The position numbers were made by a program, and so were the translations under genes. From a virus (taxonomy: Duplodnaviria; Caudoviricetes), in IMG/VR virus record IMGVR_UViG_3300032233_002382, positions 96,001-160,000 of that record: a stretch of DNA of 64,000 nucleotides; one strand, given 5' to 3'. The notes beneath the pieces are model-generated. The model had not been told where the DNA came from. It ran no database searches and was given only the letters and a program-made list of their open reading frames with translations. Positions 9,291 through 25,533 of the stretch are shown one piece after another (position 1 is the first letter of the stretch; each line of letters starts with the position of its first letter).

Positions 9291-12200
9291 ATGTCTACTT
9301 CGCAAATTCAACTTCGTCGCGGTACTGCTGCTAGCTGGTCCTCCATCAATCCTGTATTGGCTCAGGGAGAGATGGGGTATGAGACCGATACTGGCAAAAT
9401 TAAAATCGGTAATGGTACTACTGCGTGGAACGCACTGAGTTATTTCGCTGGCGGCGGCGGATCTGGAGATACCGGTCCTGCTGGTGCTACGGGACCCGCT
9501 GGTGCGGATGGTGCTACGGGTCCGGTCGGTCCCGCTGGTGCTACAGGTCCCGCAGGCGGTGGAGGAACCGGAGCTTTAGTATACTTCGATGAAGACCGAA
9601 GCGTGGCTTATAATACTATAGCGCTAAAACCAGATAGCGCTTTGCCATCAGATGTTAACGTCGCTCTAGTGGCCGGTTCAGGCGCTCTATTAGCTTCAAT
9701 ACCCGATGGGACTGTCGCTGGTGGTAATGATCGTGGCGCTTACGCTTTAGACTTCCAGCGTCTACGAGGCAATGCAAACCACGTAGCTTCCGGTGATTAC
9801 AGTTACATACTTAGCGGTGCATATAATAAAGTCCAGGGTACTGGTTCAGGTATACTTTTCAGTATCGATTCGGGAGTGGTCGGTGCGTCGAACTTCCTAG
9901 CAGTCGGTAATTCAGCTTTCTTGAATGGTGATGCAAACTCAGTTCTTTTAGGCGTGAATAGCGTCGTACAGGGTACCGGGAATTTCGCTGCCGTCGCTTA
10001 TGGTGCGACGATTTCTGGTTTCACTAACTCAGTACTATCTTCACCTCAAGCCTTTATCTCGGGTGATTCCAACTCCATACTTGGTGGCGAGTCTCAGCGC
10101 ATCACAGGCGACCACAGTGTCATCATCAGCGGCGAGAATAACCAAGTAAACGGCGGTTATTACGCGATCATTGGTAATGGTCGTAACAACATTGTGTCAG
10201 GAACCGGAACTGGCGTTCTAATCGGTGCCGAAAACAATGTATGGGGCGACTTATCGGCTGTACTTCTTGGTCAGCTTAACTCGGTAACCGCCTCGAGTTC
10301 CATAGTTCTTAATGGCCAAAATGTGATGGTGGTTGGCGATTCTCATTTAGTGGGTGCTGGATCTGGCCATACAGCTTCTGAAGGATATGGTGTAATCCTC
10401 AACGGCGTTTCGCATCGTGTGAGTGATCAATATGCAACGGTTCTAAATGGCGAAAATAACACTTCTGGAGCAAAGTTCGCAACGATTCTTAACGGTAAGA
10501 ATAACTTTGTGGGTGGGACTGCTTCTTCTGTAATAAGTGGTATGTACAACAGTGTTAACTCCCACTGGTCCGTGGCTGGCGGTGAATCGAATTTCGTAGG
10601 TGGTCGTGCGTCTGCTGTTATCGCGGGTCAAGCGAGCAATGCCAACGCCGATCTATCATTCGTGGGCGCAGGACAGCAAAACACAGTAAACGGAACAGCT
10701 TCATTAATCGGAGCAGGTCAGCGAAATACCGTATCAGATCAGTCAGCCGCGATAGTTGCTGGTAATGATAACCAGGCTTCTGGAGCTCAGTCTTTCATTG
10801 GAGCCGGTTCAAGTCATGCGGCGTCCGGACAGTATAGCTTTATCGGTTCAGGCCAATCAAATCAAGCACAGCAGCAGAGTAGTGCTGTTGTAGGCGGAAC
10901 CGACAATATAGCTTACAACTTCGCTTCATTTGTCGGCGCTGGTTCGACCAATGCTAGCGGATCCGCTTATTCTGCGGTGGTTGCCGGTTATGAAAACGAA
11001 GCTTTCGGGACTGCTTCGATAGTTGGCGCAGGTATTAGCAATAATCCCAACGGAACTGCGTCTGGCATTTTTGCTGGCCGCGATAGCTACATTGAGAGCG
11101 AAAATTCGGTTATTGTCGGTGGCCAGCAGAATACGATCGAGAGCCCGTCAGATAACGCATTCATAGGGGCTGGTTCACAGAACTACGTCGGAGGCGCTTC
11201 TGGATTCGTTGGAGCGGGTCAGTTAAATCAGGTTCAGAACTCCAATTCGCTTATCGGTGCTGGTCAAAGCAACGTTGTGTCATCGACAGAATCGTCAGTA
11301 TTGTCGGGTACCGGAAACGAAGTGTCGGGTAATAACTCGGCTATTTTGTCTGGAAGCTTTAACGCGGTGAAATCCACGAATTCTGCGGTGTTAAGTGGAT
11401 ATCAAAACACCGTCGATACCTCGGCCACCAATTCGGTGATCTTAGGCGGTCAAGGAAACACGGCGTCGGGCATCGGTTCGTTTATCGGTGGCGGCCAACA
11501 AAATATAGCACAGGGCATTCGTTCAACGGTCGTTAATGGCTTATTCAATGGGGCCGGTGCGCTTTACAGTGCTGTGATATCTGGCTATGCTAATTCCGCC
11601 ATCGGTCAGTATTCTACCATATTAAACGGCTCAGGCAACACTGCATCGGGTGATTACTCAGCTATCCTGTCTGGTATCAACAACGAGACCACAGGTTTAT
11701 ACTCCGTCATCATTTCTGGCGAGGGCCACACGGCGTCCGGAAGCAATTCATTCATAGGCGGCGGATACAGCAACGAAGTGACTGCCCAGAATTCGTCTGT
11801 TCTAGGAGGACGAGACAACGTAGCGTCAGGGCCGAATTCAGTGGTAGCCGGAGGTTATGGAAATAGCGCCCGCACCATTTACTCCGGAATACTGGGTGGT
11901 TGGAATAACGAATCGGTCGGGTCCGCCTCAGTGATCGTCGGTGGAACCTTTAACGAAGCAGGTTCTACCGCTACCGGTATTCTTGCCGGTACTAATAACC
12001 TTGCACAGAATTTAAATTCTTCGATCGCTTCGGGTAGACAGAACGTTATTACAAACTCAAGTGCTAACGATGAGTCTAGCTTTATCGGTGCAGGCATCAG
12101 CAATGATGTATCTGGAACCGCAAACACTATTGTTGCAGGGATCGGGAATCAAGTTGGCGGAACCGGATCGGCTATTGTTGCTGGTGATTTGAATTTTATC

Positions 12201-13565
12201 ACCAACGGAGTCTATAATTTTATCGGCGCCGGAGAAAATGTTTCCATACAGAGTTTAGACTTCGCATCCATAGTCGGTGGGAAGTTTAATCAGATGCTCA
12301 CGAACGCGGACTATGCTTTTATCGGAGGCGGCCAATCAAACTCTGTTAGAGGTGTGGCCTCTGTAGTCGCTGGTGGTCGTGATAACTTGACAGGCGATGA
12401 TGCAGAATATGTGGGCGTGTTAGGCGGTCGACAGAATAACATTTATGCGAGTTATTCATCCATTGTTGGTGGTAACCAGAATTCAATAGCAGCTGGAGCC
12501 GAACTTAGCGGTATTCTGTCGGGTTTCAGCAATCAAGTGTCTGCAACAGGATCAGCCATCGTCGCCGGGTATGATAACACCGTTTCCGGAAAATACTCGA
12601 TCGTAGGGGCCGGTTCCTTAAACCAGGTCACCAATGAACATTCGGCTGTCGTGGGCGGTCTAAATAACTTAACATATGATGATTATTCTACGATTGCAGG
12701 CGGTGCTTATAACGTAATATTCGACGGTTCAGCCTATGGGGCGTCTGGACTAAATGTGATTGCCGGAGGTTGGCTTAATAAGATACGCGCTGATCAAAGT
12801 GGCATTTTTTCTGGCGGTAACAATACAGTAACTGCAACTTCATATAGCGTGATCGCTGGCGGTAACAATAACACTATAGACGGCTCCTATAGGTCGATGA
12901 TCGGATCCGGTACTTTAAATCACATAAAGGACGGACAAGAAAGCGTTATCTTCGGGGGAAATAGGAACTACGTGACTGGGGCTAGCTGGGGTTCAGTAAT
13001 TGCTGGTGGATACCATAACTCCGTATCCGGTTGGTTTTCCTCGATACCTGGTGGTCGTGGGGCCAGCGATAGAGGCACTTGGGGAGTGTTCGCCTTATCT
13101 TCTAGCAGCGTCACGGGATCTGCGCAAACGAATGTGTCGCTCAGAGGAACCGCGCAGACTTCGATCTTGCCAGTAAAAACTATTACATTTGACGGTGTTA
13201 CCGAAACCACGATGACTTCATTGCAGCCGGTGTTCGGAGCAACCTCTTACGGAATTCTACAGATTCCAAACGCTTTCGCCGCTAAAGTTCGTCTGGACGT
13301 CACTGCTCGCAACGGTAATCCTGGAGAAGTCAAAGGCTGGTCTTATGATTTCATAGCTTATAATGATAGCGGAAATGTTTTCGTCGATGGTTTAACCGGA
13401 ATGTCTTATGGGTCATATGGTGGGTTTACCGACCCGACAGTGACTGGCAGTAGCTCACTTGGTGGCGTTATTGTTAACGTAATTGGTCCTGGCACTACAG
13501 CCACTACATGGGCAGGCACCTTCTACTCGACCGAAGTAGCCGGTTTAGGTGGTTGGACAGGCTAA
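9291..13565 (+). CDS. Long fibre/adhesin: Mtd/hyaluronidase-like N-terminal module, short collagen segment, beta-solenoid repeats
   Basis: IQLRRGTAASW..NPVLAQGEMGYETDTGKIKIGNG N-terminus, then more than 1000 aa of roughly 15-aa N-x-A-x-G-x-x-S-x-I-x-G-G-x-x repeats. Confidence 0.85.
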   Translation: MSTSQIQLRRGTAASWSSINPVLAQGEMGYETDTGKIKIGNGTTAWNALSYFAGGGGSGDTGPAGATGPAGADGATGPVGPAGATGPAGGGGTGALVYFDEDRSVAYNTIALKPDSALPSDVNVALVAGSGALLASIPDGTVAGGNDRGAYALDFQRLRGNANHVASGDYSYILSGAYNKVQGTGSGILFSIDSGVVGASNFLAVGNSAFLNGDANSVLLGVNSVVQGTGNFAAVAYGATISGFTNSVLSSPQAFISGDSNSILGGESQRITGDHSVIISGENNQVNGGYYAIIGNGRNNIVSGTGTGVLIGAENNVWGDLSAVLLGQLNSVTASSSIVLNGQNVMVVGDSHLVGAGSGHTASEGYGVILNGVSHRVSDQYATVLNGENNTSGAKFATILNGKNNFVGGTASSVISGMYNSVNSHWSVAGGESNFVGGRASAVIAGQASNANADLSFVGAGQQNTVNGTASLIGAGQRNTVSDQSAAIVAGNDNQASGAQSFIGAGSSHAASGQYSFIGSGQSNQAQQQSSAVVGGTDNIAYNFASFVGAGSTNASGSAYSAVVAGYENEAFGTASIVGAGISNNPNGTASGIFAGRDSYIESENSVIVGGQQNTIESPSDNAFIGAGSQNYVGGASGFVGAGQLNQVQNSNSLIGAGQSNVVSSTESSVLSGTGNEVSGNNSAILSGSFNAVKSTNSAVLSGYQNTVDTSATNSVILGGQGNTASGIGSFIGGGQQNIAQGIRSTVVNGLFNGAGALYSAVISGYANSAIGQYSTILNGSGNTASGDYSAILSGINNETTGLYSVIISGEGHTASGSNSFIGGGYSNEVTAQNSSVLGGRDNVASGPNSVVAGGYGNSARTIYSGILGGWNNESVGSASVIVGGTFNEAGSTATGILAGTNNLAQNLNSSIASGRQNVITNSSANDESSFIGAGISNDVSGTANTIVAGIGNQVGGTGSAIVAGDLNFITNGVYNFIGAGENVSIQSLDFASIVGGKFNQMLTNADYAFIGGGQSNSVRGVASVVAGGRDNLTGDDAEYVGVLGGRQNNIYASYSSIVGGNQNSIAAGAELSGILSGFSNQVSATGSAIVAGYDNTVSGKYSIVGAGSLNQVTNEHSAVVGGLNNLTYDDYSTIAGGAYNVIFDGSAYGASGLNVIAGGWLNKIRADQSGIFSGGNNTVTATSYSVIAGGNNNTIDGSYRSMIGSGTLNHIKDGQESVIFGGNRNYVTGASWGSVIAGGYHNSVSGWFSSIPGGRGASDRGTWGVFALSSSSVTGSAQTNVSLRGTAQTSILPVKTITFDGVTETTMTSLQPVFGATSYGILQIPNAFAAKVRLDVTARNGNPGEVKGWSYDFIAYNDSGNVFVDGLTGMSYGSYGGFTDPTVTGSSSLGGVIVNVIGPGTTATTWAGTFYSTEVAGLGGWTG

Positions 13566-13581
13566 ATTAGAATCATGTGAT

Positions 13582-13614
13582 CTGCCTAGACCGGATTCAT
13601 TCCGGTCTAGGCAG
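13582..13614. terminator. Strong hairpin after the fibre gene
   Basis: Perfect 14-bp inverted repeat CTGCCTAGACCGGA-TTCAT-TCCGGTCTAGGCAG; no long U-tract. Confidence 0.65.
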
Positions 13615-13647
13615 GTACAGTTATACATGAATCTCATATTGGTGTGT

Positions 13648-14349
13648 ATGACCGACGTCTTAGGCATTTACGGATCTTCAAAATCCGATTTTCCTAAGAG
13701 TATGTCATACTTAGCACCGGACGCAGCTCAGGCATATATAAACATCTGCCATATCAATCGTCTCCGAATTTCTGACATGTACCGATCGCCAGAGCAGTCC
13801 TTGATAGCTCGACAGACGAAGTCTGGAGTTCAACCGCCGGGCTTTTCCGCACACAATTTTGGGGTAGCTATCGATGTGGATGTAGACGACTGTCTTTCAA
13901 GGTTTAAGAAATCAAAGCCGCAGTTTGATTCGCTAATGGAAGGCTTCGGATGGTATTGCCACCGCAAAGATGGCAAGCGCGGATTCGAAGACTGGCACTA
14001 CAACTTCCTGGGTGACATGAAATCAGACCCGACCATAAAGTCCAAGTTCGAGTCCGGTAGTACCACAGCTGATGCGGTCGAAGAGAAGATTCGGTTAATG
14101 TACGGCAGCCATTTCACGCTTACTAGTAAACAAATACAATCCGAATTGTCTAAGCTAAAGCTATACTCAGGCGATATAGACGGAATTATCGGACCCCGTA
14201 CCAGAATGGCAGTCTCAATATTTCAGAAGACCTGGGGTTTAAAAGAGTCTGGTGAGGCAGACGAACGCACCATGCGTACATTAGTGACAGTCGCTGCCGA
14301 TAAGCACGTCATTAGTTCAGCATCCACTTTAACACATCCAGTAGGCTAA
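13648..14349 (+). CDS. Endolysin: M15-family Zn peptidase plus peptidoglycan-binding domain
   Basis: YRSPEQ, SAHNFGVAIDVD and EDWHY motifs; C-terminal PG_binding_1-like IDGIIGPRTRMAVSIFQK..GL..SGEAD. Start moved to ATG 13648. Confidence 0.8.
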   Translation: MTDVLGIYGSSKSDFPKSMSYLAPDAAQAYINICHINRLRISDMYRSPEQSLIARQTKSGVQPPGFSAHNFGVAIDVDVDDCLSRFKKSKPQFDSLMEGFGWYCHRKDGKRGFEDWHYNFLGDMKSDPTIKSKFESGSTTADAVEEKIRLMYGSHFTLTSKQIQSELSKLKLYSGDIDGIIGPRTRMAVSIFQKTWGLKESGEADERTMRTLVTVAADKHVISSASTLTHPVG

Positions 14350-16913: not shown

Positions 16914-17570
16914 ATGTCACTCGTGCTCGCTTCACCCCTACCTAAAGGCGCTGAATACCTCGCCGATATTGCGGCGAAAGTCGCCCCTCAGGGCGGTGTT
17001 TCTCCGTATCTACTTCTCGGCATTCTTTATGCTGAATCAAATTTCGGCATGGCGCTTAAGCCGACCGGTCCATCTGGATCTGGCGACTTCATAGCCCGCC
17101 CCACTTCTCCAGATCGCGACAAGAGAATGGCTTCTAATCCGCTCCCTGGCGTGGTTAAGAAGACTCTGGCTGAGGGTATTAAAGCCCGTAAAATTGCTGG
17201 CCCCTGTGAAGCCTGGGTTCCCACCACCAACGGCTGGGGATGCGGCTTATTCCAAATCGATTATGAGGCCCACTACGAATTTTGCAAGTCTGGACAGTGG
17301 ACTGACCCCGAGAAGGCTTGTGCGTACGCGGTTGGAATTCTCAAGTCAGCTAGATCTTCACTCGTCAAATTAGTGCCTGGTATATCGGGCGTAAACCTGG
17401 ACCGCGCCATGATCGCCAGCTATAACGCTGGTGCTGGTCGTGTTTCGAAATTCCTGAAGGAGGGAAAGTCTCTCGATGACTGCACTTTCCACCCAGGGTA
17501 CGTCGACAAGATCTGCAATAAAGCCGACGCTCTTGCCGGTCATTCAGGTTCCTGGATGACTGTGGGGTAA
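16914..17570 (+). CDS. Lysozyme-like lytic transglycosylase (SLT/goose-type)
   Basis: LGILYAESNFG (catalytic Glu), GLFQID, ASYNAGAGRV and YVDKI motifs; GGAGGT SD. Confidence 0.8.
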   Translation: MSLVLASPLPKGAEYLADIAAKVAPQGGVSPYLLLGILYAESNFGMALKPTGPSGSGDFIARPTSPDRDKRMASNPLPGVVKKTLAEGIKARKIAGPCEAWVPTTNGWGCGLFQIDYEAHYEFCKSGQWTDPEKACAYAVGILKSARSSLVKLVPGISGVNLDRAMIASYNAGAGRVSKFLKEGKSLDDCTFHPGYVDKICNKADALAGHSGSWMTVG

Positions 17571-17603: not shown

Positions 17604-19964
17604 ATGCGTAAACATATTTTTAGTATAACTATTTCTTTTCTCCTCTTGGCTCCGGTGGTTAGTCCTGCACTAGACTCCGATTCGGATGGTCTAGATGACG
17701 CCGACGAAGTTTTAGCAGGACTACCACCGCTGGTTAGGGATTCTGATGCAGATGGTATGTGGGACGTATCAGATGATGATATGGATGGAGACGGGATACC
17801 CAATCTATCAGAGTGCAGCCTTGGCGCTACTACAGTCGTTTCTTTGGTAAATGGAAGCTTTGAATTACCAACATTTTCCGGCACAAACTTATTTTTCCCT
17901 ACTGAAGCTAATATGCCGGGATGGAAGTCTACAGCTCCGGACCACACCTTCGAGCTGTGGCCTAACGGAAATTTCAGTGGGTTTAACGCCTTAGACGGGC
18001 GAGTGTTTGTCGAACTGAATGCGAATTACGTTTCAACTCTATACCAAGACGTGCCCACCACACCGGGAAACAGATTTCTTTATTCGTTCGCCCATTCAGG
18101 ACGCCAGGGTACGGACACTATGGACTTCTTGCTGGGGACCCCAGGAGGCTCACTAGTCCAGCAGAGACGCTGCATAACTCCGGCCCGCACCTGGACTAGG
18201 TACAGCGGCGTTGTTCAGATTCCTGCAGGCCAAACCACCACCAGATTTGCATTTGCAAGCATCTCTTCCTCTTGTGGATCTTCATGTGGAAATTTCTTGG
18301 ATGCCATTAATTTTCGTCCCGCTTGTTTTTCTGATTTCGATCAAGACGGAATCCCAGACGCTCTAGACACTGACTCCGACAACGATGGTCTATCTGACCG
18401 CGTTGAGGGGATGTCGTTTTTCCGAATTGCCGACCGAGACGATGATGGGTGGCTAGACGGAAGCGATAACTGCCCATCTATATCAAACCCTAACCAAGCT
18501 GATTTAGATAGAGACGGTATTGGCGACCTATGTGACAATGATGACGACGGCGACGAGATCGCTGACAATATCGACAACTGTCCGCTTTACAGCAACTTTG
18601 ACCAATTAAACACCGACCATGATTTCTTCGGTGATGTTTGTGATGGTGATGATGATGGAGATTCCATAAGCGACGTAGTTGATAATTGTCCTCTGCATTA
18701 TAACGTAGCGCAAGAAGATCTAGACGGAGATTCAATAGGCGACATATGTGACCTAGACGATGATGGTGATGGGGCTAACGATGATGCGGACAATTGTCCT
18801 TGCCTGGCTAATCCTAGCCAGGCGAATCTAGATAACGATTCTGAAGGAGATGCTTGTGATAGCGATGACGACGGAGACATGGTACCGGATGATGTTGACA
18901 ACTGCTCAAGAATCGCTAATGCTGATCAGTCCGACATGGACCATGATTTAGTCGGTGACATGTGCGATAGTGATCTTGATGGAGATGGGCTTGGAAATGA
19001 TCTAGATAACTGTCCGAACATATCCAACGGCGATCAACGAAACATTGACGATGATGCATTTGGAGACTCATGCGACTTAGATAAAGATAATGACAGCATC
19101 TCAAATTCAGAAGACAACTGTGATGTCATACACAACCCACTACAGTCTGATATGGATCTAGACGGTATCGGCGATGAGTGTGACTCCGACGTTGACGGAG
19201 ATGAAATATCGAATCTAACGGACAACTGCCCCTTGCTTCGGAACGGAACTCAGTTTGACCAAGATCTCGATGGAATAGGAGACATCTGCGATCCGGATGT
19301 GGACGGAGATTCAGTTGTCGATGGTATCGACAACTGCCCTGGGGTGACAAACGCTAGTCAGAATGATACAGACTCAGACGGAATTGGAGATGCTTGCGAT
19401 GTAGATGCTGACGGCGACGGGATAGCGGACAATCATGATAACTGCACAGGGCTATCGAACGCTGACCAGACTGATACCGACACTGACGGGATTGGTGATA
19501 TGTGCGACCCCGACGCAGATGGCGACGGCGTTCCGAATATCGAGGAAGAGAAGATCGGGACAAATCCGCTTGTAGTCGATACTGATGGTGACGGGTATTC
19601 AGATGCCGAAGAAGCAAAGCAAGGTAGTAGTCCCACGGACCCTGGCCAAGTCCCACCGGGAATCTATTCAGGTGGGTGTTCTTCCTCTGGTCCCGTATCA
19701 ACTGGGTCGACTACGTTCGGGTCTAATGCTCCGAACGATCGATCATCCAGTGCTTTTTATGCCTTAGCTTTTATCCCACTCTTTATGCGTCGCAAGCGGA
19801 ACTTTTTCCTTGCTTTGTTGCTTGTTTCTTCGGTCGCTTCGGCAGACCAAGGTGTCCAAGTCTCCGTTCCGCGTGAATTAGAACTATCTTTGACTTCACC
19901 GGAGATAGGATCGGAATTCGTTACTGTGCCTTCCAGTCAATTTAAGGACGGCACCCATTTTTGA
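17604..19964 (+). CDS. Secreted TSP3 (thrombospondin type 3) repeat protein with jelly-roll domain and MYXO-CTERM-like tail; frame runs on into the start of an OM-barrel domain
   Basis: Signal peptide, VNGSFE..FLDAINF carbohydrate-binding-like domain and ten 36-aa DNC..N.Q.D.D.DG.GD.CD repeats. These are followed by GGC + Ser linker + hydrophobic + RRKR, then a second signal-like segment. Confidence 0.85.
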   Translation: MRKHIFSITISFLLLAPVVSPALDSDSDGLDDADEVLAGLPPLVRDSDADGMWDVSDDDMDGDGIPNLSECSLGATTVVSLVNGSFELPTFSGTNLFFPTEANMPGWKSTAPDHTFELWPNGNFSGFNALDGRVFVELNANYVSTLYQDVPTTPGNRFLYSFAHSGRQGTDTMDFLLGTPGGSLVQQRRCITPARTWTRYSGVVQIPAGQTTTRFAFASISSSCGSSCGNFLDAINFRPACFSDFDQDGIPDALDTDSDNDGLSDRVEGMSFFRIADRDDDGWLDGSDNCPSISNPNQADLDRDGIGDLCDNDDDGDEIADNIDNCPLYSNFDQLNTDHDFFGDVCDGDDDGDSISDVVDNCPLHYNVAQEDLDGDSIGDICDLDDDGDGANDDADNCPCLANPSQANLDNDSEGDACDSDDDGDMVPDDVDNCSRIANADQSDMDHDLVGDMCDSDLDGDGLGNDLDNCPNISNGDQRNIDDDAFGDSCDLDKDNDSISNSEDNCDVIHNPLQSDMDLDGIGDECDSDVDGDEISNLTDNCPLLRNGTQFDQDLDGIGDICDPDVDGDSVVDGIDNCPGVTNASQNDTDSDGIGDACDVDADGDGIADNHDNCTGLSNADQTDTDTDGIGDMCDPDADGDGVPNIEEEKIGTNPLVVDTDGDGYSDAEEAKQGSSPTDPGQVPPGIYSGGCSSSGPVSTGSTTFGSNAPNDRSSSAFYALAFIPLFMRRKRNFFLALLLVSSVASADQGVQVSVPRELELSLTSPEIGSEFVTVPSSQFKDGTHF

Positions 19965-21094
19965 TTGCCCCGCTGTTCTCGGTCGATCTATTAAGATGGA
20001 CTGGGCAGCGGGGCGAATCGCTAAATTTGATCCCAAATCTACTAAGTTCGAGCGCTGCTTTCGCTTACGCAGGGAAGTACTGGTTTGTGGGGTTGACCTC
20101 TGAACTAATTACGAGATTAGGCTCGGAGCGCATCGGTGGATTTCAGATCTTAAAACCAGAGGCGTTCGCAGGTGCTCAATTCCGAATCAAATTCCTATCT
20201 GCAAGTGTTCGGGCTGTAACGAATATTCCGATTTCCTATAATAGCTATTTCAACTCGAGCCAGTCTTTAAACGCGATTCTCGCTCTCGGTTTTAAAATCG
20301 ATAAGTTCGATGCTTCATTATCTTCTTCTTACGGCACTAGTGGATTACGCCTAAAGTCAGGCGTTAAGTATAGCTTGTTCGATTGGTTGGGGTTTTCGAT
20401 CGAATCAGATTTAAGCCACCAGATCGGAACGTATTCAGTGTTTCGACTCGGTAATAGATTTTCTGCTATCGCCGGAGTTGCATTCGCTGTAAAGAGCGGA
20501 CCCGGAATTCCTCGATTCGACTCCGTTTTAGGGGTTCGACTTGTACCACCCGATCCTGTGGATAGCCCGGCCGTGGTCGTTGAACGGCCACACCCAGTTG
20601 TTGTGTTGCCATTAGACCCAAAATCGGATCCAGAATCGATCGATTCGACTGCGATAGTCACACCCGTAATCCAGCCTGACGTAACCAGCGATCCCGACCT
20701 AGGCGCAAGCCCGTTGCCGGTTTTAAGTCCAGATCCTTCACCCGAGATCGTTTCGGAAGCGCCGTCTGAAATAAAACCGGTAGTTTCTAACGATATCAAG
20801 CTTCCTACAGTCGAACAGAAGAAGGTCGTATTCGATAAAACCGAGTTAAAGCAATTTGAGCTCATCGAAAAATGGCAGTACTTTCTGAAAGGTCACCCCG
20901 AGATCGAGTTAGTGAGCATTAATTTCGTCGGTGGAAAGATGAGTATGAATGAGGGCTACAACCGAATTAAAAAAGTCAAGGAATTTTTGATTTCTTCCGG
21001 TGTCGAGAAAGAAAGGATACGCCTCGGAAAAATGATTAAATTTTCGGGTGATCCGTACATAAGAATCGACATCATAAGAATCCGGGGTGAATAA
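19961..21094 (+). CDS. OM beta-barrel + Pro-rich linker + degenerate OmpA-like domain (-1 frame continuation of 17604..19964)
   Basis: Alternating amphipathic beta-strands, PDPV..P linker and KVKEFLISSGVEKERI OmpA-like end. The TTG start has no SD and no signal peptide of its own. Confidence 0.7.
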   Translation: MIAPLFSVDLLRWTGQRGESLNLIPNLLSSSAAFAYAGKYWFVGLTSELITRLGSERIGGFQILKPEAFAGAQFRIKFLSASVRAVTNIPISYNSYFNSSQSLNAILALGFKIDKFDASLSSSYGTSGLRLKSGVKYSLFDWLGFSIESDLSHQIGTYSVFRLGNRFSAIAGVAFAVKSGPGIPRFDSVLGVRLVPPDPVDSPAVVVERPHPVVVLPLDPKSDPESIDSTAIVTPVIQPDVTSDPDLGASPLPVLSPDPSPEIVSEAPSEIKPVVSNDIKLPTVEQKKVVFDKTELKQFELIEKWQYFLKGHPEIELVSINFVGGKMSMNEGYNRIKKVKEFLISSGVEKERIRLGKMIKFSGDPYIRIDIIRIRGE

Positions 21095-21831
21095 TGGAGG
21101 ATAATCGGCCCGTATGCGACATTACGCTAAATAAGGATGGATCGATACCATTCGAATCTATCGCTAACTTAGATCCTAACTGTCGAGTGCCTAAGGCTGT
21201 TAAGAATGTAATCATACCTATGGAAGGAGAGCGAGATTCTGTGAAGAATAAAAAACATACGGAGATAAAGACCACCGAAGAAGTTACCTTAAACCAGGAG
21301 GAAGTTCCAATGGCCCAGACCGAATCAGTAAAATCAGTAGACACCCAGGTTTCTGAAGCCCCCGCAACCGTAGCTACGGTAGGTGTCGACCAAGCTGTAA
21401 GTCAGGTAAAATCTCTTATACCGGCAGGGTCAGACGCCAGTCCGGCTTTGATGATTGGCGGGGCAGCGATTCTAGCAGTCGTGGGTGCTGCGATAAAATT
21501 TGGCCCGTCGATGCTAAAAGCTCGGGCTGAAAAGGCCGAAAGAGAACACGAAGCCAAGATGAAACAGCTCGAGATCGAAGAGAAGAAGAGCGAAAAACAG
21601 GAAGACCAGCACCAACAGTGCAATGCATCAAGGCTCGCTCTTGAAGCTAAGGTGGGTGCTCTCGCTTCTCAAGTCGAATCACTATCTGGCAAAGTGGAAA
21701 AATCAGGGTCCTCTTCGTTAAGTTTAGGAGATATGGACTCTGAAGAGCTAGTGGAAAAACTCGAAAAGCATGATAAAGCGATCAAAGCCCTCGATAAGAA
21801 TGTGAAGGCGTTAAAGAAAATATTAGGGTAG
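21094..21831 (+). CDS. Membrane-anchored coiled-coil protein
   Basis: One TM helix (ALMIGGAAILAVVGAAIKF) followed by a coiled coil; possible second start at ATG 21310 with GGAGG. Confidence 0.6.
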   Translation: MEDNRPVCDITLNKDGSIPFESIANLDPNCRVPKAVKNVIIPMEGERDSVKNKKHTEIKTTEEVTLNQEEVPMAQTESVKSVDTQVSEAPATVATVGVDQAVSQVKSLIPAGSDASPALMIGGAAILAVVGAAIKFGPSMLKARAEKAEREHEAKMKQLEIEEKKSEKQEDQHQQCNASRLALEAKVGALASQVESLSGKVEKSGSSSLSLGDMDSEELVEKLEKHDKAIKALDKNVKALKKILG

Positions 21832-24783: not shown

Positions 24784-24936
24784 GGGGATCGCTGCGCAGT
24801 CGCCAGACCGGTGGAAGGTCACGACTGGGCCGTTGGGGATCATCAACGGCATCCAAAAATGGGCCAGCCATTGATGTTGGTTTCGCGGTCGTGTTGTGTC
24901 GCTTATTCAGCGCTGGCCTCTTCCCGCGCCACTTTT
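24784..24936. ncRNA. Candidate structured RNA in an otherwise non-coding gap
   Basis: Stems CAGTCG/CGACTG (24797-802/24822-27) with inner GACC/GGTC; GCCGTTG/CAACGGC (24829-35/24844-50); GGCCAGC/GCTGGCC (24862-68/24912-18). Possible closing pair GGGGA/TTCCC, then a T5 run. Confidence 0.3.
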
Positions 24937-25092
24937 TCGGCTTGCAGATCGATCCAAAATTCGCGTTTTATTATGCTTCTATGGAGTCGAGACCATGAGA
25001 TAAACCATCATATAATCTACAGTAAATTTCACTGTCATACTATCTTACCCTCCAACCCTCTAACCCCTAACTGGCAACTTTCTAGGAATCAA

Positions 25093-25533
25093 ATGGGCAA
25101 CAAATTGTTCGTAGGCAATCTCTCCTGGTCGGCTACTGAAACTGAACTTAAGTCACATTTTTCGAGCGTCGGAACCGTGAAGGACGCCCGTATCATGATG
25201 GATCGCGAAACAGGTCGTAGCCGTGGTTTCGCTTTCGTCACGATGTCTTCCGATGAGGAGGCAAACCGGGCCGTAGGCGAATTTCACGGTGTGATGTTCA
25301 TGGGACGCGATCTGATCGTGAACGAAGCTCGCGATCGTAATGCTCCCGGTGCTCCTCCTGCTGCTTCCATGCACCGCGAGTCGACTCACAGGCCGCGACC
25401 CAGACCCTCTGTTGATCAGGGTCATTTCCAGGACGCGCCAATGTTTGCGGAACCTCCTCCAGATCGCTCGCGTGGTCGTCGCTTTAACCAGAATGACCGT
25501 CGTAAGCGTGGTGGGTATGATGATTTCGAGTAA
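25093..25533 (+). CDS. RRM-domain RNA-binding protein
   Basis: RNP2 LFVGNL, RNP1 RGFAFVTM, DRETGRSRG and Arg/Gly-rich tail. True start is ATG 25093 with AGGA SD. Confidence 0.9.
   Translation: MGNKLFVGNLSWSATETELKSHFSSVGTVKDARIMMDRETGRSRGFAFVTMSSDEEANRAVGEFHGVMFMGRDLIVNEARDRNAPGAPPAASMHRESTHRPRPRPSVDQGHFQDAPMFAEPPPDRSRGRRFNQNDRRKRGGYDDFE

What the first reader, a model, noticed from the sequence alone, without database searches (positions are those of the whole stretch)
19785..21094. One adhesin gene split by a single-base shift at CAT-TTT-TGA (T5 run): phase variation, -1 recoding or assembly error
Seen: frame 0 encodes a signal-like segment (MRRKRNFFLALLLVSSVASA|DQG, ATG 19785) and the first barrel residues, then stops at TGA 19962. 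The -1 frame is open only from 19946 and continues seamlessly as ..KDGTHF-LIAPLFSVDLLRW.. through the barrel to the OmpA-like end. Its TTG has no SD or signal peptide. A T6 allele, or P-site slippage UUU to UUU with a stop codon in the A site, would give a roughly 1163-aa fusion. Inference: an ON/OFF or ratio switch between an anchored and an unanchored surface protein.
Basis: partly seen in the sequence, partly recalled or inferred. Interest (0 to 1): 0.8.

Follow-up and report, generated by a model that had tools for sequence, protein, structure and literature searches.

The report
Programmed -1 frameshift in phage envelope gene
A giant freshwater phage makes a 1163-residue cell-envelope protein (a calcium-repeat adhesin joined to an outer-membrane barrel) only when ribosomes slip back one base at a U-run that sits in front of a very strong RNA hairpin; two diverged relatives keep this signal, so the "broken gene" is a programmed frameshift, not an error.

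Summary
ORF A (17604-19964, 786 aa) stops at CAT TTT TGA, and ORF B (19961-21094, 377 aa) continues in the -1 frame, which is open only from 19946.

Evidence that this is a programmed -1 ribosomal frameshift:
- Two diverged relatives need the same -1 shift at the homologous Phe codon. They are L002 (49% identity in ORF B) and L005 (22%).
- Each has U_UUU, a 5-nt spacer and the stem GCCCCGYUG/CAGCGGGGC. An AGGA-like element ends 10 nt upstream in all three.
- In the window this hairpin is the most stable 56-nt fold on the + strand of all 64 kb.
- Synonymous codons are frozen in the stem arms (6/7 against 3/32 elsewhere, p = 1.7e-4).
- L002 has no start codon for ORF B.
- Two more distant homologues (1137 and 1166 aa) encode the whole protein in one frame. 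They align without a gap across the junction and lack the U-run, the hairpin and the AGGA element.
- An independent 2015 freshwater assembly, about 5% diverged, shows no indel.

Assembly error, phase variation and separate genes are therefore unlikely.

ATG 19785 is not a gene start. It lies inside a conserved junction made of a MYXO-CTERM-like tag (GGC, a membrane helix, RRKR) followed directly by a signal-peptide-like segment ending in AxA. This suggests a two-protein precursor whose ratio is set by the frameshift. The shift itself has not been measured.

The parts
17604..19964 (+). ORF A, the frame-0 product (786 aa). It holds an N-terminal signal peptide (17604-17669), a beta-sandwich-like N-domain, about 11 TSP3 calcium-binding repeats (about 18327-19625, with DNC every 36 residues), the sorting junction, a 39-aa stub and the stop.
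   Evidence: (PF02412, E 6.7e-89, 11 stretches).
19668..19802 (+). MYXO-CTERM-like tag lying inside the protein: SGGCSSS motif (19668-19688), hydrophobic helix AFYALAFIPLF (19752-19784) and basic cluster MRRKRN (19785-19802).
   Evidence: The layout is conserved in all five homologues. The tail of P0013 passes TIGR03382 (17.5 bits against a cut-off of 15.85); the window's tail does not reach any cut-off.
19803..19844 (+). Second hydrophobic segment, FFLALLLVSSVASA, with AxA before D748. It looks like an internal signal peptide that shares its basic n-region with the tag.
   Evidence: AxA is conserved in all five homologues (ASA, ASA, AQA, AKA, ANA). The Met is not conserved. Cleavage is inferred.
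19945..19949 (+). SD-like AAGGA, ending 10 nt 5' of the UUU codon. Candidate 5' stimulator, as in dnaX.
   Evidence: GAGGA in L002 and GGGAG in L005 sit at the same distance. It is absent in the unshifted L003 and L008. Many genes in the window have SD-like motifs. Function is inferred.
19958..19964 (+). Shift site U_UUU (19958-19961), followed by the frame-0 stop UGA (19962-19964). tRNA-Phe re-pairs one base 5', and the next codon read is UUG (Leu).
   Evidence: L002 has CAU UUU UAA and L005 has CGU UUU ACC UAG.
19967..20014 (+). 3' stimulatory stem-loop. The outer stem is 9 bp (GCCCCGCUG / CAGCGGGGC), followed by inner helices. The spacer after UUU is 5 nt.
   Evidence: Folding energy is -37.1 kcal/mol, rank 1 of 15,986 windows of 56 nt; z -4.3. 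The structure is conserved in L002 and L005. Stem-arm codons are identical in 6/7 cases against 3/32 elsewhere.
19961..21094 (+). ORF B, the -1 frame part (377 aa). It holds a beta-barrel (about 20078-20542), a Pro-rich linker (about 20558-20848) and an OmpA-C-like domain (about 20849-21082).
21094..21831 (+). Downstream 245-aa protein with a membrane segment and a coiled coil. Its start overlaps the ORF B stop (TAATG). It is a conserved neighbour and possible partner.
   Evidence: Homologues follow the gene in L002, L003 and L008. Function is unknown.

Best explanation
Bases 17604-21094 are one gene of a freshwater jumbo phage (record of 307,777 bp), decoded in two ways. Ribosomes that stay in frame 0 end at UGA 19962 and make a 786-aa product. 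That product consists of a signal peptide, a lectin-like N-domain, TSP3 calcium repeats, a MYXO-CTERM-like tag, a second hydrophobic segment and a 39-aa stub. A fraction of ribosomes slip back one base when tRNA-Phe on UUU (19959-61) re-pairs with the overlapping UUU (19958-60). The slip is promoted by the very stable hairpin that starts 5 nt downstream, and probably by an SD-like AAGGA that ends 10 nt upstream. These ribosomes go on to make the 1163-aa form, which adds an outer-membrane beta-barrel, a Pro-rich linker and an OmpA-C-like domain. Shown here: the layout, its conservation, the hairpin, and the lack of any other way to translate ORF B in L002. Inferred: ribosomal slippage as the event, its efficiency, and the role of the SD-like element. 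Also inferred: a host myxosortase cuts at the Cys tag and signal peptidase cuts after AxA, so the gene yields a lipid-anchored surface adhesin plus a variable, sub-stoichiometric amount of a TraB-like barrel/OmpA partner.
For: 1. The same break is found in diverged relatives. L002 has ...GNHF, CAU UUU UAA, and then the -1 frame reads L-IAPLYSANLLRWTGQRGE. L005 has CGU UUU ACC UAG, and then the -1 frame reads Y-LAPLYAADSLFWQGQRGE.
2. L002 has no ATG, GTG or TTG in the -1 frame from its opening to 90 nt past the site, yet the first 30 or so residues are strongly conserved.
3. The hairpin has the same 9-bp outer stem and the same 5-nt spacer in all three. In that stem every cell pairs, and the single change (C to U) keeps a G-U pair. 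Over all 20 pairs, 88% of cells pair, against 37-55% when the partners are slid. It is the most stable local fold on the window's + strand.
4. Synonymous sites are frozen in the stem arms: 6/7 against 3/32, Fisher p = 1.7e-4.
5. The unshifted homologues P0008 and P0013 are single ORFs, collinear and gapless across the junction. They have no U-run, no hairpin (-14.7 and -10.8 kcal/mol per 105 nt, against -41.4 and -32.9) and no SD-like element.
6. An independent assembly (run X2, 2015, 64 substitutions in 1201 nt) has no gap. L005 and L006 give the same junction.
7. ORF B is a barrel protein with no signal peptide of its own. Only the frame-0 segment upstream can export it.
Against: No protein or ribosome data exist, so the shift has not been observed. 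Only three independent shifted sequences are known, and covariation is weak: one pair changes on both sides, and the shuffle controls are not significant. The case rests on conservation. U_UUU is not a classical X_XXY_YYZ heptamer; the P-site His or Arg tRNA could not re-pair, so efficiency may be low. In the window alone, a TTG overlapping the stop with AAGGA 11 nt upstream could allow some re-initiation. The host, and therefore its anti-SD sequence and tRNA set, is unknown.
Confidence: 0.8

Rival explanations
1. Two separate genes. ORF B is started on its own, or by termination-reinitiation at the UUGA overlap, and the hairpin has some other role.
For: In the window, TTG 19961 overlaps the stop, and AAGGA lies 11 nt upstream. 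L005 has a TTG four codons into the -1 frame.
Against: L002 has no canonical start for 90 nt, yet it keeps the conserved N-terminal residues. A product started there would have no signal peptide although it is a barrel protein. Unshifted homologues are single ORFs that align without a gap. The shift site lies inside a predicted barrel strand. The hairpin would bury the start region.
Confidence: 0.07
2. A dead gene or a sequencing or assembly error: a one-base deletion in a T run (true T6), with ORF B not expressed.
For: Homopolymer indels are the commonest assembly error. The source run X1 is not independent.
Against: Four independent sequences share the same phase, with T5, T5, T5 and T4. ORF B stays open for 307-377 codons at 22-49% identity, which implies purifying selection. 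A dedicated hairpin is conserved only in the shifted lineages.
Confidence: 0.04
3. Slippage at the nucleic-acid level: phase variation of the T run in DNA, or RNA polymerase slippage that adds one U to part of the mRNAs.
For: The site is a homopolymer. An extra U would give the same protein.
Against: T5, and T4 in L005, is far shorter than known phase-variable or transcriptional slippage tracts (general knowledge; review PMC5009743). No length variant appears in any assembly. A hairpin 5 nt downstream together with a 5' SD-like element is the layout of a ribosomal stimulator.
Confidence: 0.06

Closest known systems
E. coli dnaX -1 frameshift cassette (5' SD-like element, slippery site, 3' stem-loop)
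   Same: It has the same three-part layout. An SD-like element ends 10 nt upstream, a stable stem-loop starts 5 nt downstream, and one gene gives two products that share an N-terminus. The review PMC5009743 also notes bacteria in which the longer dnaX product comes from the shift and the frame-0 stop lies directly after the site, as it does here.
   Different: The slip site is U_UUU (tRNA-Phe only), not A_AAA_AAG. The gene family is unrelated. The longer product is the shifted one. Efficiency is unknown. The role of the SD-like element is inferred from spacing alone.
Phage tail assembly chaperone G/GT -1 frameshift
   Same: Both are conserved programmed -1 shifts in a dsDNA phage that set a fixed ratio between a short and an extended protein.
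   Different: This gene is not a tail gene. It encodes exported host-envelope proteins. G/GT sites are usually heptamers and often have no strong hairpin.
Myxococcus xanthus TraA/TraB (traAB operon, PMC3325183) and the MYXO-CTERM/myxosortase pathway (PMC11980579)
   Same: A surface protein with a lectin-like head, a repeat stalk and a tag made of Cys, a membrane helix and an Arg-rich tail is followed directly by an envelope protein with an OmpA-like domain. In traAB the two ORFs overlap by 4 bases, so a fusion is a small step. The language-model search put TraB-type clusters among the neighbours (0.84, a lead only).
   Different: Here the two parts form one ORF joined tag-to-signal-peptide. 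The head and stalk are a different fold plus TSP3 repeats, not PA14 plus Cys repeats. The window's tag fails the HMM cut-offs. No homology to TraA or TraB was shown. The gene is on a phage.
MtsC (NCBIfam NF047638, MXAN_1334)
   Same: It is a TSP3-repeat surface protein with a Cys-containing sorting tag. The score is 493 bits against a cut-off of 350.
   Different: The score is the sum of four stretches of repeat matches; the best covers model positions 89-265 of 428. Orthology is therefore not shown. MtsC has no fused barrel.

Membership tests
Programmed -1 ribosomal frameshift site | The downstream ORF is in the -1 frame, has a short overlap and no usable start of its own. | tested here: met
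   The overlap is 19 nt in the window and in L002. L002 has no ATG, GTG or TTG up to +90 nt.
Programmed -1 ribosomal frameshift site | A slippery sequence lets tRNA re-pair in the -1 frame. | tested here: met
   U_UUU is present in all three shifted sequences. Only tRNA-Phe can re-pair. The classical heptamer X_XXY_YYZ is not present.
Programmed -1 ribosomal frameshift site | A stable RNA structure lies 5-9 nt 3' of the site. | tested here: met
   The spacer is 5 nt. Energy is -37.1 kcal/mol, rank 1 of 15,986. The structure is conserved, and stem-arm codons are frozen.
Programmed -1 ribosomal frameshift site | The cassette is conserved in relatives that need the shift and absent in those that do not. 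| tested here: met
   It is present in the window, L002 and L005, and absent in L003 and L008.
Programmed -1 ribosomal frameshift site | The trans-frame protein is observed. | not testable with these tools
   The phage is uncultured and no RNA run was listed.
MYXO-CTERM sorting domain (TIGR03901 / TIGR03382) | A Cys motif, then a membrane helix, then an Arg/Lys-rich tail. | tested here: met
   SGGC...AFYALAFIPLF-MRRKRN. The same order is found in all five homologues.
MYXO-CTERM sorting domain (TIGR03901 / TIGR03382) | The HMM score is above the curated cut-off. | tested here: not met
   The window has no MYXO-CTERM hit, only sub-threshold CGP-CTERM and Synerg-CTERM hits (E 0.3-0.4). The homologue P0013 passes TIGR03382 (17.5 against 15.85).
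MYXO-CTERM sorting domain (TIGR03901 / TIGR03382) | It is located at the extreme C-terminus. | tested here: not met
   It is followed by 53 residues in frame 0, or 430 in the fusion.
MYXO-CTERM sorting domain (TIGR03901 / TIGR03382) | A cognate myxosortase (CPBP protease) is present. | tested here: inconclusive
   PF02517 has no match in the 307-kb phage record, which is about 72% complete. The host is unknown.
OmpA C-terminal-like domain (PF00691) | The Pfam HMM matches. | tested here: not met
   No hit for the window. One of the 12 family members scanned reaches E 0.068.
OmpA C-terminal-like domain (PF00691) | The fold is the alpha/beta fold of OmpA-C, Pal and MotB. | tested here: met
   VIA Z is 8.4-9.1 with rmsd 2.3-3.0 over 82-92 residues. 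11 of 13 weak profile hits in the PDB are Pal or OmpA (E 0.012-0.9). These Z values stand only a little above the tool's stated typical best scores (7 to 8 for models without a clear match). pLDDT for this region is 83-93.
Phase-variable homopolymer (contingency) locus | A long tract whose length varies between strains or reads. | tested here: not met
   The tract is T5, T5, T5 and T4, with no indel in an independent assembly. Raw-read mixtures could not be inspected, because only contigs were available.
MtsC equivalog (NF047638) | A full-length match above the cut-off. | tested here: inconclusive
   The score is 493 bits against 350, but it comes from four repeat stretches, the best covering model positions 89-265 of 428.

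The most novel reading that the evidence does not exclude
The gene is a natural two-in-one envelope precursor. A C-terminal-type sorting tag (Cys, membrane helix, RRKR) is fused back-to-back with an N-terminal-type signal peptide, and the two share the basic cluster. The host myxosortase and signal peptidase would then cut one polypeptide into a lipid-anchored surface adhesin and a TraB-like barrel/OmpA partner. In one phage clade a dnaX-like -1 frameshift was then laid inside the barrel's second strand, tuning the partner to below 1:1. This would be a phage copy of a myxobacterial-type cell-cell adhesion or outer-membrane-exchange module, built as a polyprotein with translational control of stoichiometry.
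Probability: 0.4. Interest if true: 0.8.

Novelty: new member of a known kind. Interest (0 to 1): 0.62.

Why it matters
This adds a well-supported, testable recoding site outside the usual phage tail-chaperone and transposase contexts. Nature also supplies a control here, because sister lineages encode the same protein without any shift. It shows that annotation splits this gene wrongly: databases hold ORF B as an orphan 377- or 315-aa protein. It also reveals a jumbo phage carrying a myxobacterial-style surface adhesin with an outer-membrane partner. That hints at the host range (bacteria with Cys-tag sorting) and at phage control of the surface of the infected cell. The junction, where a sorting tag sits next to a signal peptide, is a simple system for asking whether C-terminal sorting tags can work inside a protein.

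Tried and rejected
- More relatives were sought and not found. Scans of viral contigs with the protein, with two alignments and with the hairpin pattern gave nothing. The phages tblastn search found no match. Metagenome contigs returned only the L002 contig again.
- The genome contigs protein scan found none. The hairpin pattern gave two hits there, both unrelated chance matches.
- The word-index searches added only P0003, P0011 and P0013.
- Rfam gave no family, only sub-threshold microRNA hairpin matches.
- Pfam, NCBIfam and PHROGs gave nothing for ORF B.
- No RNA holder was listed among public runs, so expression could not be examined.
- Only Logan contigs could be laid, not raw reads, so a minor T6 sub-population cannot be excluded.
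- Relatives in host genomes could not be drawn, because the record is a virus.
- The MtsC paper (PMC2168718) is not held.
- Stop-codon read-through is rejected. The three frame-0 stops are UGA, UAA and UAG, and in the window another frame-0 stop follows within 10 codons.
- Independent initiation at ATG 19785 is rejected, because the Met is not conserved.
- The barrel's similarity to autotransporter translocators (NalP Z 12.9) is no better than its similarity to KdgM (Z 13.2), so it is taken as a generic 12-strand barrel.
Full report
**What is there**

The window is bases 96001-160000 of a 307,777-bp IMG/VR virus record. Nearby genes include an Mtd_N tail-fibre-like protein, a VanY/PG-binding peptidase, an SLT-like protein, an HNH endonuclease and RuvB. 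Contigs from freshwater metagenomes match part or all of the stretch.

Frame 0 ends ...CAT TTT TGA. The T run is 19958-19962. The -1 frame opens at 19946, so a frame change must occur within 19 nt.

ORF A holds, in order:
- a signal peptide;
- an N-domain with no Pfam match (one PHROG of unknown function covers residues 81-223); I read it as a beta-sandwich from the sequence alone;
- 11 TSP3 repeat matches (PF02412, E 6.7e-89), with a DNC motif every 36 residues;
- the motif SGGCSSS, a hydrophobic helix and MRRKRN;
- a second hydrophobic stretch ending ASA/D;
- 39 further residues.

**ATG 19785 is not a gene start**

In L002 the aligned residue is Phe, in L005 Lys and in the two distant homologues Gln. 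The whole junction is nevertheless conserved in all five proteins: the Cys motif, helix 1, the basic cluster, helix 2 and AxA.

**The frameshift is conserved**

L002 is an NCBI metagenome contig with the same gene order. It is 66% identical over the whole protein and 49% over ORF B. It reads ...AAC CAT TTT TAA, and the -1 frame then continues L-IAPLYSANLLRWTGQRGEDLNLIP. The window reads L-IAPLFSVDLLRWTGQRGESLNLIP at this point. L002 has no ATG, GTG or TTG in that frame until more than 90 nt later.

L005 is an ENA contig with 51% GC and 22% identity in ORF B. It reads CGT TTT ACC TAG and again needs a -1 shift at the aligned Phe codon. L006, a Logan contig, is identical to L005 over its whole 1550 bases, including this junction.

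Run X2, from a 2015 freshwater study, yields a contig covering 19400-20600 with 64 substitutions and no gap.

The three frame-0 stops are UGA, UAA and UAG. This rules out a recoded stop.

**Natural controls**

P0008 (1137 aa; L003 and L004) and P0013 (1166 aa; L008) are single ORFs on AT-rich phage-like contigs. They have the same architecture. The read-through product of the window aligns to them without any gap at the junction.

At the homologous place they have no U-run, no SD-like element and only weak folding. Energies are -14.7 and -10.8 kcal/mol per 105 nt, against -41.4 for the window and -32.9 for L002.

**The stimulators**

All three shifted sequences have U_UUU, a 5-nt spacer (UGAUU, UAAUA, ACCUA) and a hairpin whose 9-bp outer stem is GCCCCGYUG/CAGCGGGGC, with further inner pairs.

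- In the window this is the most stable 56-nt fold on the + strand of the whole 64 kb, at -37.1 kcal/mol, rank 1 of 15,986. That is stronger than the terminator-like hairpins elsewhere in the window.
- On the three-sequence alignment 88% of pair cells are standard pairs, against 37-55% when the partners are slid.
- The only change in the outer stem (C to U) keeps a G-U pair. One inner pair changes on both sides.
- With three sequences, covariation alone is not significant.
- The stronger test is at synonymous sites. Among residues identical in all three, the codon is also identical in 6 of 7 in the stem arms but in only 3 of 32 elsewhere in ORF B (Fisher p = 1.7e-4).
- An SD-like element (AAGGA, GAGGA, GGGAG) ends exactly 10 nt 5' of the UUU in all three. 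Many genes in the window have SD-like motifs upstream.

This layout matches the dnaX cassette. The comparison rests on established knowledge and the review PMC5009743.

**Mechanism**

The only tRNA that can re-pair is tRNA-Phe, from UUU to the overlapping UUU. Two timings are possible:
- The slip occurs with UUU in the P site and a slowly decoded A site. That A site holds a stop codon in the window and in L002, but ACC in L005.
- The slip occurs with UUU in the A site. This fits the 5-nt spacer of canonical -1 sites, but then the P-site His or Arg tRNA cannot re-pair.

Both give ...THF-LIAPLF.... The efficiency cannot be computed.

**What the parts are**

The AlphaFold2 model of ORF B (mean pLDDT 65) shows three parts: a beta-barrel (residues 40-194, pLDDT about 80-89), a disordered Pro-rich linker, and a confident alpha/beta domain (297-374, pLDDT 83-93).
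- The barrel matches 12-strand outer-membrane barrels: KdgM Z 13.2, a COG4313 channel Z 13.0 and NalP Z 12.9.
- The last domain matches OmpA-C, Pal and MotB: Z 8.4-9.1, rmsd 2.3-3.0.
- A profile of the family finds mostly Pal and OmpA chains in the PDB, at weak E-values of 0.012-0.9.
- Pfam finds nothing.

In the model of the unshifted homologue, one predicted strand precedes the residue aligned to the shift site and a second spans it. The frame-0 product therefore cannot form the barrel.

The Cys-helix-Arg segment has the three-part design of MYXO-CTERM-type tags (PMC11980579, PMC3325183). The aligned segment of P0013 passes TIGR03382; the window's own does not reach a cut-off. No CPBP protease is encoded in the phage record.

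**Interpretation**

Frame-0 translation gives the adhesin with its tag. The shifted product adds the barrel/OmpA-like module.

The tag is followed at once by a signal-peptide-like segment with a conserved AxA. The most economical reading is a precursor cut into two envelope proteins. The frameshift then sets their ratio, which would be 1:1 in the unshifted clade and lower here.

The pairing of a Cys-tagged surface protein with an OmpA-like partner recalls traAB, whose ORFs overlap by 4 bases (PMC3325183). The language-model search placed TraB-type clusters among the neighbours, but at lead level only. The processing steps and the biological role are inferred, not shown.

**Verdict**

The recoding site is a new member of a known kind. 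The tag-to-signal-peptide junction is the less expected feature.

Noticed in passing
window 24811-25533 (and L002 2800-3270): A phage protein with a clear eukaryote-type RNA recognition motif (PF00076 RRM_1, E 5e-21). It is also present next to the HNH gene in the related contig L002. RRM_1 strikes me as unusual in a phage.
   Followed up: no
window 21094-21831: A 245-aa protein with a membrane segment, a conserved Cys and a C-terminal coiled coil. Its ATG overlaps the ORF B stop (TAATG). Homologues follow the adhesin-barrel gene in L002, L003 and L008, so it may be a third component of the module.
   Followed up: partly
window 16914-17570: An SLT-like lytic transglycosylase gene lies directly upstream of the adhesin gene, in the same order as in L002. 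Together with the VanY/PG-binding peptidase at 13549-14349, this makes the region rich in cell-wall enzymes.
   Followed up: no
window 18465-19439: The TSP3 repeats are strictly periodic. The DNC motif recurs exactly every 36 residues, ten times (residues 288-612).
   Followed up: partly
window 9291-13565: A 1424-aa protein with an Mtd_N (major tropism determinant N-terminal) domain and four 'antifreeze beta-roll' matches. It is followed by a perfect 16-bp stem hairpin at 13565-13620 (-32.9 kcal/mol), which looks like a terminator.
   Followed up: no
window 19965-19967 in run X3: In one freshwater run the contigs break exactly between 19965 and 19967, at the foot of the hairpin, where strains differ (T or A at 19966). 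This is a graph break at a variant, not an indel.
   Followed up: partly
L003 / L008: The unshifted homologues sit on AT-rich (35% GC) phage-like contigs. These also carry adenylosuccinate synthetase, GIY-YIG, HAD_SAK_1 and DUF5856 genes, so the adhesin-barrel gene is shared by phage lineages of very different base composition.
   Followed up: no
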